A stretch of 64,000 bases of DNA. It comes from Eledone cirrhosa. Taxonomy: Eukaryota. The translations under genes were made by a program, and so were the position numbers. Shown here piece by piece: positions 11,534-24,012 of the stretch. The notes below the pieces were generated by a model that saw only the letters and a program-made list of their open reading frames with translations, did not search any database and was not told the origin of the DNA. The stretch lies in NCBI GenBank assembly GCA_964016885.1, contig OZ024742.1, positions 32,240,001 through 32,304,000 of the forward strand, given 5' to 3'. The number at the start of each line of letters is the position of its first letter. The stretch's first letter is position 1.

Positions 11534-11584
11534 AGTTTAAGCAAAGAATCGCTGCTTTCACCCTTAACGGGATCTTCTGAAACT
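11534..11584 (-). ncRNA. Hammerhead variant (U4A core) in the 3' pLTR
   Basis: Reverse complement AGTTT CAGAAGA TCCC gttaa GGGT GAAA GCA gcgattctt TGC TT AAACT, on the same strand as the GIY-YIG frame. Confidence 0.7.
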
Positions 11585-12512
11585 AACAAAGTCAATCTGT
11601 AAACGCAGAACTGTATATTTCAAAAAACGTTGCAACCGGAGGAAGACAGGAAGACGATACTTTGGTTCGTGGTAACGTTCGCTGGCAAAGAACGGGAAAA
11701 AACGAATAATACGTCATTAATAGGAGCGGTGAAAAACAATTACGCGCAAAGACAGAACCAGGTTTATGGTATAAAAGAGGTCGTAGACTAATGTTCTCTT
11801 AGGTGGTGCATAGAGACGTTCTCTGGCAATGAACGAAAAAACGAAGATAATAAGTCATATGTGGAGCGTGGAGAACAATAGCACGCAAAGACAAAACCAC
11901 GTAAATGGTATAGCAGAAGTTGTAGACTAAAATTCTAACTAGGAGACCAAATGAATCTCCGCTACAGAGTTAAGAATAAAGTAAATAAATACAATACAGA
12001 AATAATAGAAACAAATAAATACATACACGCAAACAGATACGTACATACACAAGCATACGCAAAACCTTACCATAGGTATACAAAACCACGCACATATAAA
12101 TATGTGTGTGTGTGTGTGCTTGTGTACAAATAAATAAATAATTATATAAACGTATATAAGTAAATAAATACGTATATAACAAGCGCACACGCATACCTAC
12201 AAATAAATACACGAATGTTCGGAGACGTAAGTCAACTAAAACAAGAAGTACACATATACACACACCCACCATACGTACGAACCTGCATACTCACGCAGAC
12301 GCAAAACTCCCATATACACATAGCCAAACCCTAAATACCAGAATATGTAAAAATTATACGCCATAACAGTCAAATATACGTACGAGAAGGTATACATACC
12401 TTCACAAAACATACGGGTAATATATACTTACCTATGCAAATAAGTAAAGGAATAAACAAAACATATACTTAGCTCCCACATCAAGACGTAAAATATCCAC
12501 GTATAGATCGTG

Positions 12513-13130
12513 CTATCCGTTAGGGTATAACGTGGGGCTGTAATACAGGAAAGTTTTGTGCAATTTATGTTTACAAGCCGAAATTGCCTCAGATTTTTTG
12601 TTTAAGATGTGGTCTGTGGCGTAGAGTATTTCCAGGGCCTCAGCGGCGCAGAGGTCACATGGTCTTTTATTTCCGTTATACGATCTAGCCCTAGCTAGGA
12701 TCTCCCAGTGTAACTTATATTGGGTGTGGTTGTCTTTTAGACTCCAGATATAAGCTGAAAGTGACGTCATATTCCTTCTTAGAGGGTAACGAAAAGAATG
12801 GGTATGCATGTAAAGACGCTGCTTGAAACTATTGGCGGTTAACCCTATGTACGCCCTACGGGACGTGGGTGTTACAACCTTACATTTGTAGACAATGTTA
12901 CTAGAGAGGCATTTCTGGGATAGGGGACAATCAGCCCGATTCCTACAATTACAGTTAGTACTAACTACAGGGTTGCACGTGTTCCTACGGCTAGGTAGTT
13001 TAGCTAAATTTGAAGCTGTGATGTTATGTGCAAGGTTAGGAGTCGTAGAGTAAGAAATTTTAATAGTATTTCTATTAAAAAATGTTTTAATTATATTTAT
13101 GTGTAGGGGGAAAGTGCTTCGTAATAAGGG
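12513..13130 (-). pseudogene. Penelope-like GIY-YIG endonuclease fragment (205 open codons, no start)
   Basis: Hand translation extends ORF 12513..12809 upstream: ..FFNRNTIKISYSTTPNL..CNCRNRADCPLSQKCLSSNIVYKCKV..AYIGLTANSFKQRLYMHTHSF..TSLSAYIWSLK..CDLC..E..LNKKSE..CKH. Confidence 0.88.
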
Positions 13131-13480
13131 AATTTTAGTCTACAACTTCTGCTATACCATTTACGTGGTTTTGTCTTTGCGTGCTATTGTTCTCCACGCT
13201 CCACATATGACTTATTATCTTCGTTTTTTCGTTCATTGCCAGAGAACGCCTCTATGCACCACCTAAGAGAACATTAGTCTACGACCTCTTTTATACCATA
13301 AACCTGGTTCTGTCTTTGCGCGTAATTGTTTTTCACCGCTCCTATTAATGACGTATTATTCGTTTTTTCCCGTTCTTTGCCAGCGAACGTTTCCACGAAC
13401 CAAAGTATCGTCTTCCTGTCTTCCTCCGGTTGCAACGTTTTTTGAAATATACAGTTCTGCGTTTACAGATTGACTTTGTT

Positions 13481-13531
13481 AGTTTCAGAAGATCCCGTTA
13501 AGGGTGAAAGCAGCGATTCTTTGCTTAAACT
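13481..13531 (+). ncRNA. Hammerhead variant (U4A core) in the inverted pLTR
   Basis: Same 51-nt motif as 11534-11584 on the opposite strand. Confidence 0.7.
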
Positions 13532-13696
13532 TTAATCTGTTATTTTAATAAATATTTGCTCTTCGGTTCTTATATATTTGATATATATTTTCCTTATCGA
13601 GCCCTCTTTGGATTTTAGTCTTCAATTTTATTATTATTACTATTTTATTATTATTATTATTCAATTTTATTATTATTCAGTTTTATTATTATTACT

Positions 13697-20532: not shown

Positions 20533-21837
20533 TTGTCCACCACTAATCCTCTATTCGAGAGTGGACGCTCCACTGACCGCATTGCCCGCCTGCTAGGTAA
20601 TAATAATATACAAAGTTTAACCGTCACTGTCAAATATTCAACTTAATAATAAATTCTAGTGAAAAGAACAACGGAGAGAACTACAATAATAATTATAACA
20701 AATATATATACATATATAAAATAGGAATAATAGAAACTTCTGAAACAAAATAATAATTATATGAGGTGAAGCTAAGACAACAACTGTCCCAGAAGGACTG
20801 TCTATGGCGACCTTTTACTGAATACCTTCCACTTCTACCTATTGTGACAGGATATTATTTTATATCTCTACCCCTGGCTCTCCTTTACTGTACTAATTCA
20901 CACACACACACACACACACACACACACACACATACATATATATATATATATATATATATATATACATACATACATACATACATACATACATACATGCATG
21001 CATACATACATACATACATACATACATACATACATACATACATACATACATACATACATACTACATACATACATACATACATACACACATACCTGGAGAG
21101 GATTAGGCTCTGAAGGTTTAAAAGAAAATGCCCGAGAAACACCGTATGTCAATAGGACATCCCTACGGCTCTCTCTCTCTCTCTCTCTCTCTCTCTCTCT
21201 CTCTCTCTCTCTCTCTCTCTCTCTCTCTCTCTCTCTCACTCACTCCACATACACACATACATGCGCGACGGCTGAGCTCTTGCCGTTTTGACAGTAAATT
21301 CCGGGCAAGAGCTCAGCCGTCGGCTCTGCCTCTCTACTATATTTACACTAGACACACACATACATATACATATATTCATATATACACACACACGAGAAGC
21401 TGTCATTCCTTCCTGCAGATTTCTTTTAACGTGCTGTGTTGTTTGACTTGACAAGATGTTTACTTAAATCATGTTCTATATAGATAAAGACAACCACAGG
21501 GATGTGGTCCGAACGTGGAAGAGCCGAACTTCCACTGTCATCGCCTCCTTCTCTTTCGCCCTCCCCATCTCTCTGTATGGTGAGCAAATGGGGTCCCACG
21601 CGCAGGCCTCCCCACAGCCCCGGCGGACAGAATGGAGAAGGCGTTTCCCCGGAGGATGGTAAGGGAGTTGCGGTGGAAGAGCCATTCCATATCCCAAGTA
21701 TCGAGAACTCTGCTGAATGTTGTTCTTACTAGTTTTAAAATGGAATGATCCTGATCGCCCCCTCCCCCTACTCTCTATATTTCTTTATATATATCAGAAT
21801 GGAGGCGGTAAAAACCAGTTAGAACATTACTCATCAA

Positions 21838-22244
21838 AGTACTCAATACTTAGGGTAGTAGAGTGGGTAATAGGAAAAATTCGGGACCCCGACAGCTGAG
21901 CTCCGGCCGTTTCAACAGTTAGATCTGAACGGATCCGAGTTCGGATCTAGCTGTTGAAACGGCCGGGGCTCAGCTGTCGGGGTCCCGAATTTTTCATATA
22001 TATATATATATATATATATAGTATATATATATATATATATAGGAACCAGTAAGACCCCGACGGCTGAGCTCAAGCCGTTTCGACGGCTAATTCTGGACGC
22101 TAATCAGTCCAGAATTAGCCGTCGAAACGGCTTGAGCTCAGCCGTCGGGGTCTTACTGGTTCCTATTACCCACTCTACTACCCTAAGTATTGAGTACTTT
22201 GGTGCGTTATGGTCCACCTGGTTCCTTACCACATTTCCTTCGTT
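21838..22244. mobile_element. Two divergent fold-back half-hammerhead elements around a (TA)n tract
   Basis: Hairpins 21875-21995 and 22039-22166 (60-bp perfect arms, 8-nt loop). GAAA-CGGCT-tgagctc-AGCCG-TC at 22124-22146. Confidence 0.8.
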
Positions 22245-22873
22245 ATATATATATATATATATATATATATATATATATATATATGGATATCTATGTATAT
22301 ATATATGGATGTATATATATATGTATGGATATGGATATATATGGATATATATATATGTATGTATATGGATATATATATATATATATATATATATATATAT
22401 ATATATATATATATGGATATATATATATATATATATATATATATGGATATATATATATATATATATATATATATATATATATATATATATATATATATAT
22501 ATATATATGGATATATATATATATATATATATATATATATATATATATATATATATATATATATATATATGGATATATATATATATATATATATATATAT
22601 ATATATATATATATATATATATATATGGATATATATATATATATATATATATATATGGATATATATATATATATATATATATATATATATATGGATATAT
22701 ATATATATATATATATATATGGATATATATATATATATATATATATATATCCATATATATATATATATATATATATATATATATATATATATATATATAT
22801 ATATATATATATGGATATATATATATATATATATATATATATATATGTATATAAATATATATATATATATATA
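22244..22873. repeat. Long interrupted (TA)n array with GG insertions
   Basis: Direct reading. Confidence 0.95.
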
Positions 22874-23969
22874 TTACGTTAACCAAGAACTCCTAAGACC
22901 TAACCAACAACTTAATTTATAAAATAATTTTTTTTAAGAAAAATTCTTTTGGGATTTTGTGAAGAAAATAAATTTGTTGAAAGCACAAGTGAAGCCATTT
23001 TTTCTTCCCCCCTGTCTTAATATACCTAACTGTACCAAGGATTACACACATTTTCCAATATATATATATATATATATATATATATATATATATATATATA
23101 TAACAATTGTTTGGAAAGAGATGTATTTTAATTATGTCTCATAAAATAATACAACTGGCTATCCGCAAAATACGTATAGTTAACACCCCAAACGTATAAT
23201 TGGGATTATACTAAGGTATATTCTAATGTTTGTTGAGTGAGACGGAAGCCGGTCGGAGTATTGCTTAAAGCTTTCTCTGTTAATGTTTGTGAGTGAGACG
23301 GAAGCCGGTCGGAGTATTGCTTAAAGCTTTCTCTGTTAATGTATTAAATAAATATATATATATATATATATATATATATATATATGGATATATATATATA
23401 TATATATATATATATATATATATATATATATATATATATATATATATATATATATATATATGGATATATATATATATATATATATAAACGGAAAAAATGA
23501 AACGAAATTTCCCTGTTACTTAAATATAAGTATATATACGTACATACAAATATGTATACAGACGTACAGTAGTATGTATATATATATATATACATACATA
23601 TATATATATGTACGTATGGATTCACCGAACATTTATTATAATGCTCGGTGTGTTTGTAAACAAACATCCCGTATTAAGCCGTAGTGTCCAGCAACCATCG
23701 TTGTCCGTTTATCGATATATATGTGCGCATGTATGTATATATATATACATACTACTGTACGTCTGTATACATATATGTATGTACGTGTACATACTTATAT
23801 TTAAGTAACAGCCGTACTAAGAGTGGGAAATTAAATTTCGTTTCATTTTTTCCGTTTATCGTTTTCGGTGCACCCGGCCGATTAACCCACTCGATATGCA
23901 AGTTGGGCTACTCAGCCGTTAATATGCATATGGTAAGTATATACGTTCAACAATCTGGCAGGAAGTTAT

Positions 23970-24012
23970 ACGTTGCTGACGATAGCTAATAAGCTTGAAA
24001 CTAGTACAGCGT
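23970..24012 (+). ncRNA. Minimal type I hammerhead ribozyme
   Basis: ACGTTG CTGACGA TAGCT aata AGCTT GAAA CTAG TA CAGCGT; stem III is the palindrome ACTAGT; predicted cleavage after 24006. Confidence 0.85.

What the first reader, a model, noticed from the sequence alone, without database searches (positions are those of the whole stretch)
11534..24012. U.U instead of G10.1-C11.1 in four unrelated hammerhead families
Seen: the base after the core and the base before GAAA are both T in family 11534/13481/31103 (T-CCC..GGG-T), family 15194/15679 (T-GGTTCC..GGAACT-T), family 15960/53699 (T-TTC..GAA-T) and 23970 (T-AGCT..AGCT-T). Known: this first stem II pair is normally G-C and contributes to a metal-binding site. 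Inference: recurrence across unrelated stems points to a selected, lineage-specific core variant (possibly slower or protein-assisted) rather than decay. I cannot check whether it has been reported.
Basis: partly seen in the sequence, partly recalled or inferred. Interest (0 to 1): 0.75.

Follow-up and report, generated by a model that had tools for sequence, protein, structure and literature searches.

The report
Known U·U hammerheads of Penelope retrotransposons
These are hammerhead RNA motifs at the ends of jumping genes (Penelope-like elements) in an animal genome, likely slow self-cutters, and their odd U·U mismatch is real but already published as a working variant and common in this group of elements, so the find is ordinary.

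Summary
All eight motifs have U at 10.1 and 11.1, and U·U is the family consensus: 19,559 of 20,170 copies in family A, 98 and 97 of the first 100 listed in D and C, 26 of 26 in B. It is not new. Perreault 2011 reports an active natural U10.1·U11.1 hammerhead (phage PaP3). Craig 2021 File S2 shows it, without comment, in 14 of 25 Hydra-clade Penelope families from Hydra, a sea cucumber and a sea louse. The A and C proteins are Hydra-clade and about 50% identical, so the four families are not all unrelated, and the variant is not lineage-specific. In this genome the position is labile: G-C 16, U·U 9, other states 20 of 45 evenly sampled families, with switches inside families. Best reading: relaxed constraint, with U·U the best-tolerated mismatch. 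Earlier scan notes found U·U in phage DNA; their U·U/A17 coupling is not seen here. Left over: a U4A core is the consensus in two families, and my one search found no paper on it. Cleavage was not tested.

The parts
11480..13555 (-). Family A Hydra-clade Penelope-like insertion: 5'-truncated copy on the minus strand (13132-11480) plus an inverted partial copy (13134-13555), beside (TA)n
   Evidence: blastn against the full element in L018, 95-97% identity; sequence
12513..13139 (-). C-terminal linker and GIY-YIG-type endonuclease part of the family A ORF (CxCX5C, YIGLT, CxxC..E, CxH)
   Evidence: no Pfam hit
11534..11584 (-). Family A hammerhead: U4A core, U10.1 (11572), U11.1 (11560), CUU site (H17 at 11539)
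13481..13531 (+). Family A hammerhead, inverted copy: U10.1 13493, U11.1 13505, H17 13526
31103..31153 (+). Family A hammerhead in a short terminal fragment: U10.1 31115, U11.1 31127
15194..15275 (+). Family B hammerhead, long stem II insert: U10.1 15206, U11.1 15258, GUA site
15679..15760 (+). Family B hammerhead, second copy 485 bp downstream; palindromic stem III; one mismatch in stem I
   Evidence: missed by the strict scan because of the stem I mismatch
15960..16008 (-). Family C hammerhead: U10.1 15996, U11.1 15985, GUA site
16006..16060 (+). Inverted family C copy with a damaged core (A6G) and damaged stem II; still U at 10.1 and 11.1
   Evidence: read directly from the sequence
53699..53745 (-). 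Family C hammerhead: U10.1 53734, U11.1 53723
23970..24012 (+). Family D hammerhead (retrozyme-like 420-490 bp tandem family, unit here about 23715-24113): U10.1 23983, U11.1 23996, palindromic 6-nt stem III, GUA site
10627..10672 (+). Comparison: hammerhead with A10.1-U11.1
10462..10544 (-). Comparison: hammerhead with G10.1-C11.1
24558..24636 (+). Comparison: hammerhead with G10.1-C11.1 and a U4C core

Best explanation
These are type I hammerhead motifs in the terminal repeats of Hydra-clade Penelope-like retrotransposons and of a related tandem repeat family; they likely cut the element's RNA slowly, and U·U likely recurs because it is the best-tolerated mismatch at a position under weak constraint. 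Shown: the motifs, the U·U consensus, the Hydra-clade proteins of A and C, the lability of the position, and more than one origin or loss. From the literature: G12 and the G8 2'-OH do the chemistry, pair 10.1-11.1 lies next to the sheared A9·G12 pair, a metal binds at A9/G10.1, and a natural U·U hammerhead is active. Inferred: U·U keeps the stack but loses the guanine metal ligand, so the rate falls; cutting happens in a dimer through the self-complementary stem III of tandem copies, perhaps helped by the element's protein; G-C drifts through G·U or A-U to U·U, and the elements still spread because fast cutting is not limiting. Family D is assigned to this group by its hammerhead form and tandem layout only.
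For: Published active U·U, cited there as the most active mispair (PMC3088659). 14 of 25 Hydra-clade families are U·U, 7 G-C, 2 G·U, 1 U·C, 1 other (PMC8557442 File S2, my count). A and C carry the Hydra-clade motifs. Even sample, 45 families: G-C 16, U·U 9, A-U 5, C·A 3, A·G 3, G·U 2, C·U 2, 9b+G-C 3, U-A 1, A·A 1. U·U is 12 of 22 mismatch families over all loci (binomial p 3e-5 against composition; families are not independent). Switches inside families: one 310-bp tandem family of 10,912 copies has A-U in 34 and U·U in 66 of the first 100 listed; related motifs show G-C, G·U and U·U. Compensatory stem I changes in C and D. Stem III segments pair better as dimers (-12.9, -14.1, -12.8, -4.8 kcal/mol) than as hairpins (-3.6, 0, -1.4, 0). 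PLE hammerheads are slow in vitro; one needs its protein and its cleavage was not required for insertion in vitro.
Against: No rate is measured for any motif here. U·U is held unchanged across many loop II variants of family C and across 11 of 14 Hydra magnipapillata families, which also fits real selection for U·U or shared ancestry. Whether A and C share one U·U origin is unresolved. B's protein link rests on one locus (L224) and D has no identified protein. Family A adds U4A, a CUU site and a weak stem I, and its predicted fold is not the hammerhead, so it may not cut at all.
Confidence: 0.7

Rival explanations
1. U·U is selected for itself: it tunes the hammerhead down, or makes it depend on the element's RT/endonuclease protein, so that full-length transcripts survive to be reverse-transcribed.
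For: Four of the large families counted here carry U·U in all or most copies. U·U is the main mismatch, 12 of 22. It has more than one origin or loss. One PLE hammerhead is protein-assisted and uncut RNA was the main insertion substrate.
Against: A-U and U·U subfamilies of one family both amplified. A·G, C·A, A·A and G·U are also family consensus states. I counted copy numbers mainly for U·U families, so the link with abundance is untested.
Confidence: 0.15
2. Many of these hammerheads, family A above all, are degenerate passengers that no longer cut; U·U is AT-biased drift carried along by successful master elements.
For: Family A spread to about 20,000 copies with U4A, U·U and CUU; only 71 copies have canonical U4. 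Single changes in the CUGA turn gave low activity in a mutational scan of another hammerhead. Loss of G-C goes with loss of C17 (C17 in 10 of 18 G-C against 5 of 33 non-G-C families, p 0.004), as general drift would give. Naiad PLEs were reported to thrive without canonical hammerheads.
Against: Compensatory stem I changes in C and D. C3-G8 to U3-A8 covariation in several families. U4A is also the consensus of a second family with G-C, GUC and strong stems. PaP3 U·U is active.
Confidence: 0.12
3. U·U next to tandem sheared G·A pairs of the uncut ground state mimics a box C/D kink-turn and lets an L7Ae-family protein (Snu13) hold the ribozyme off.
For: Resemblance recalled from memory only: G8-A9-U10.1 facing U11.1-G12-A13 matches the kink-turn stem pattern.
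Against: Position 7 and the next pair do not follow box C/D in the window families (N7 is A, A, U, C; next pair C-G, G·U, U-A, A-U). No canonical stem follows A13. The variant also occurs in a phage of a bacterium. Not tested.
Confidence: 0.03

Closest known systems
Hammerheads of Hydra-clade Penelope-like elements (Craig et al. 2021, PMC8557442; seen: passages, section 11, supplement part 2 with Files S1 and S2)
   Same: Type I motif at the element's 3' end, no extra nucleotide after A9, near-palindromic stem III, (TA)n targets, protein motifs RW(K/R), DKT, CxCX5C, CxxC..E..N..CxH. U·U in 14 of 25 tabulated families.
   Different: The passages I saw do not comment on U·U. No U4A core is in that table. 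The units here are longer (about 3.3 kb for A; HHR-to-HHR about 6 kb in two C copies that may hold inserts) than the under-3-kb families described.
Phage PaP3 hammerhead with U10.1-U11.1 (Perreault et al. 2011, PMC3088659; seen: sections 8 and 17, passages, Fig S6 text, part 3 of 68 of Dataset S1)
   Same: Natural U·U at the base of stem II, listed among active core variants; GUA site as in B, C and D.
   Different: A phage intergenic motif, not a retroelement. I saw no rate value.
Minimal PLE hammerheads (Cervera and de la Peña 2014, PMC4209133; seen: main text parts 1-2 of 4, supplement parts 1-2 of 3)
   Same: In pLTRs, weak palindromic helix III, dimer model, low activity. 2 of 56 aligned motifs (Hydra, Drosophila willistoni) read U·U, and Fig S5A draws U U for a 440-copy family.
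   Different: Their consensus has an extra nucleotide after A9 and a highly conserved G10.1-C11.1; here 9b forms are 11 of 162 sampled copies. The GAAA column is detached in the PDF text, so the U·U reading is inferred (Hydra confirmed).
Non-LTR retrozymes (PMC7229834, passages; bioRxiv 10.64898/2026.07.22.740005, part 1 of 5)
   Same: Family D and the 310-bp family are tandem repeats with one type I hammerhead per unit and no ORF found.
   Different: Family D units (420-490 bp) are at or above the 150-450 bp range given; circular RNA not tested; no autonomous partner found.

Membership tests
Type I hammerhead ribozyme | Core C3-U4-G5-A6-N7-G8-A9 and G12-A13-A14-A15.1, U16.1-H17 | tested here: met
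   Met in B, C and D; family A deviates at U4 (next row)
Type I hammerhead ribozyme | U at position 4 | tested here: not met
   Family A has A4; 71 copies with U4 against about 20,000 with A4. Family A is hammerhead-like, with activity open
Type I hammerhead ribozyme | Three stems around the core with open ends in stem I, supported by covariation | tested here: met
   compensatory stem I changes in C and D; not the minimum-energy fold for A and C as monomers
Type I hammerhead ribozyme | G10.1-C11.1 (usual, not strictly required) | tested here: not met
   U·U; a published tolerated variant
Type I hammerhead ribozyme | Rfam hammerhead model match | tested here: inconclusive
   No hammerhead family among the 150 listed of 231 matches at E<=1; 81 not shown
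Type I hammerhead ribozyme | Self-cleavage 3' of H17 | not testable with these tools
   Needs a bench assay
Hydra-clade Penelope-like element | Single ORF with RT and C-terminal GIY-YIG-type endonuclease | tested here: met
   A: P0001 plus window ORF 12513-13139; C: 758-aa ORF in L194. Pfam gave no hit for A
Hydra-clade Penelope-like element | RWK-like motif, DKT for DKG, CxCX5C linker, CxxC and CxH around conserved E and N | tested here: met
   RWR, DKT, CxCX5C, CxxC..E and CxH in A and C; B only partly, from a broken ORF at one locus
Hydra-clade Penelope-like element | Direct pLTRs with hammerheads, inverted 5'-truncated copies, (TA)n targets | tested here: met
   L018 has hammerheads 3,259 bp apart around the ORF; inverted copy and (TA)n in the window
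Hydra-clade Penelope-like element | Placement with named Hydra-clade reference proteins in a tree | not tested
   No named reference protein was used; homologs carry no informative names
Non-LTR retrozyme (family D) | Tandem non-coding units each with a type I hammerhead | tested here: met
   Arrays of 2-7 units at 420-490 bp spacing
Non-LTR retrozyme (family D) | Expressed as circular RNA | not testable with these tools
   No RNA run was available to test

The most novel reading that the evidence does not exclude
Hydra-clade Penelope hammerheads are a protein-dependent branch of the ribozyme that has shed two textbook constraints, the G10.1 metal ligand (U·U, A·G, C·A, A·A consensus states) and U4 of the uridine turn (U4A in two families, one of about 20,000 young copies), and still cut because the element's own protein makes up for them. 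One genome would then offer a natural series of amplified core variants for testing what the hammerhead does in retrotransposition.
Probability: 0.15. Interest if true: 0.6.

Novelty: already known. Interest (0 to 1): 0.22.

Why it matters
As posed, little: the variant is published, shown active, and frequent in the published table for this element clade. Two small things are useful. Descriptors that demand a pair at 10.1-11.1 would miss 69 of 162 sampled hammerheads in this genome. The natural A-U/U·U and G-C/G·U/U·U sister subfamilies, and the U4A consensus families, are ready-made test pairs for the open question of whether Penelope hammerheads must cut at all.

Tried and rejected
1) Alternative register (first U is the known extra 9b nucleotide, second U an insertion): rejected. 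The next pair is C-G, G·U, U-A or A-U, never G-C, and same-length sisters swap G-C, G·U, A-U and U·U at that position. 2) U·U coupled to A17, a lead from earlier phage notes: not seen. A17 in 5 of 12 U·U against 6 of 18 G-C families, p 0.71; 3 of 14 U·U against 6 of 7 G-C in File S2. 3) My first label 'Nematis clade' was recalled and wrong; the motifs fit the Hydra clade. 4) DNA search of the own genome with 76 bases gave nothing; patterns worked. 5) First clustering chained neighbouring elements and was redone on the hammerhead alone; ties in three clusters were broken arbitrarily, and some '9bA:G-C' calls are probably A·C mismatches by homology. 6) The first tree did not finish; the second used 23 rows. 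7) No autonomous partner found for D. 8) No RNA holder listed; no reads were laid. 9) Perreault Dataset S1 gave no searchable sequences. 10) Not held: Lünse et al. on PLE hammerhead variants and four other papers tried by PMC id; Ruffner 1990 is cited only through Perreault. They may already cover U4A or the other mismatches. bioRxiv supplements were closed. 11) No protein fold or complex was run; neither bears on the claim.
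Full report
Observation. The window is from a 3.0-Gb animal genome rich in (TA)n. My descriptor found 162 hammerheads in 1.184 Mb of evenly spaced sample plus the window, against 2 in the reversed sequence. Patterns with N at 10.1 and 11.1 gave 20,170 (A), 25,387 (D), 16,358 (C) and 26 (B) exact copies with 0 control hits. U·U is the consensus: 19,559 of 20,170 in A, 98 and 97 of the first 100 listed in D and C, 26 of 26 in B. Rfam showed no hammerhead among the 150 listed of 231 matches.

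What the elements are. Family A in the window is a 5'-truncated Penelope-like element with an inverted partial copy (11480-13555). A full copy has two direct hammerheads 3,259 bp apart around the ORF. Family C has a 758-aa ORF between two hammerheads in L194, and the same protein lies upstream of C hammerheads in L195, L197 and L199. Both proteins carry RWR, DKT, YRDD, CxCX5C, CxxC..E and CxH, the marks of the Hydra clade (PMC8557442 section 11), and they are about 50% identical. Family B has a broken ORF of the same kind upstream at one locus, L224. Family D forms tandem arrays of 420-490 bp with no ORF, like non-LTR retrozymes; I found no partner for it.

Independence. In a 23-row tree, A, C, C's U·U sister and a G-C lineage sit in one weakly resolved subclade, and B falls elsewhere, next to A-U, G·U and A·C lineages. 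Holding the four U·U rows together is rejected (p-AU 4e-61), provided the L224 ORF is B's own. So there is more than one origin or loss, but the families are not all unrelated.

The position is labile. In the even sample, 45 families split as G-C 16, U·U 9, A-U 5, C·A 3, A·G 3, G·U 2, C·U 2, 9b+G-C 3, U-A 1, A·A 1; by copy U·U is 47 and G-C 39 of 162. Over all loci, including those fetched for A-D, U·U is 12 of 22 mismatch families (p 3e-5 against composition, families not independent). Sister motifs switch: G-C/G·U/U·U, G-C/A-U/A·A, A·G/G·U. A 310-bp tandem family of 10,912 copies has A-U in 34 and U·U in 66 of the first 100 listed. Against pure decay, subfamilies of C and D show compensatory stem I changes, and C varies its loop II while keeping U·U.

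Literature. Perreault et al. [quoted passage not shown] Their Fig S6 of active variants draws U U for phage PaP3. A search for U10.1 and U11.1 with hammerhead found only that paper. Cervera and de la Peña 2014 call G10.1-C11.1 highly conserved in PLE hammerheads, yet 2 of their 56 aligned motifs read U·U. Craig et al. 2021 File S2 lists 25 Hydra-clade families; by my count 14 are U·U (11 of 14 from Hydra magnipapillata, 2 from Apostichopus japonicus, 1 from Caligus rogercresseyi), 7 G-C, 2 G·U, 1 U·C and 1 other. Two of the Hydra entries share the same motif.

Mechanism. From the literature: the general base is a guanine (G12) and the general acid the G8 2'-OH; A9 forms a sheared pair with G12 beside G10.1-C11.1; a metal binds at A9/G10.1. 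Inferred: U·U keeps the stack, loses the guanine ligand and slows cleavage. The isolated stem III segments pair better as dimers than as hairpins in all four families, which fits the dimer model for tandem PLE copies. PLE hammerheads are slow in vitro. One, from Anolis, cuts only with its protein, and its cleavage was not needed for insertion in vitro (PMC11167929, passages). I therefore favour weak constraint with U·U as the best-tolerated mismatch (0.7), over selection for U·U (0.15), non-cutting passengers (0.12) and kink-turn mimicry (0.03, recalled). Nothing here measures cleavage.

Earlier notes. Scan notes on phage DNA had already found U·U hammerheads and the Perreault paper, and proposed a coupling with A17. 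In PLEs I do not see it: 5 of 12 U·U against 6 of 18 G-C families here (p 0.71), and 3 of 14 against 6 of 7 in File S2, although 3 of the 4 window families have A17. C17 does go with G-C (10 of 18 against 5 of 33, p 0.004; families not independent).

What remains unusual. Family A's master carries U4A with U·U and a CUU site; only 71 copies have U4. A second family of 192 copies has A4 in 99 of the first 100 listed, with G-C and GUC. One search for hammerhead with U4A found no paper, and neither published table that I read shows it, but the paper on PLE hammerhead variants by Lünse et al. was not held. In a mutational scan of another hammerhead, single changes in this turn gave low activity (PMC9901934, passages). 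This is the lead worth a bench test; the U·U itself is known. Interest 0.22.

Noticed in passing
window 11579(-), 13486(+), 31108(+); L080 and L238-L243: U4A hammerhead core is the consensus of family A (about 20,000 copies; 71 with U4) and of a second family (192 copies, G-C, GUC site). One paper search found nothing on it.
   Followed up: partly
window 24558-24636(+); L023, L041, L043, L080, L114, L204: U4C cores recur in five hammerhead clusters.
   Followed up: no
L047, L059, L060, L041, L053, L067, L121, L044: A·G, C·A and A·A at 10.1-11.1 in several multi-copy families; C·A also appears in one plant PLE row of Craig File S2.
   Followed up: partly
G000:C1:1239859-1244282 and C1:36482098-36490617 (L236, L237, L118, L215): A 310-bp tandem hammerhead family of 10,912 copies with separate A-U and U·U arrays: a natural test pair.
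   Followed up: partly
L022, L040, L045, L070, L058: U3-A8 covariant cores are common (20 of 162 sampled copies), once together with U·U (L058) in the even sample.
   Followed up: no
whole sample; Cervera Fig S3: C17 goes with G10.1-C11.1 at family level (p 0.004, not corrected for kinship); in Cervera's alignment the four motifs lacking the 9b nucleotide all have A17.
   Followed up: partly
window 42281-47158(-): LINE-type element: 1,153-aa ORF with endonuclease, RVT_1 and zf-RVT hits, preceded by a 471-aa ORF without a Pfam hit.
   Followed up: no
window 13619-14392(+): 3' fragment of a non-LTR RT ORF (weak DUF6451 hit) right next to the family A insertion.
   Followed up: no
window 62107-62592(+): Pif1 helicase 2B domain hit, possibly a Helitron-type fragment.
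   Followed up: no
window 14935-15050, 21875-22000, 10920-11090, 14580-14770: Short inverted-repeat elements between (TA)n tracts, likely PLE-type inverted ends or MITEs.
   Followed up: no
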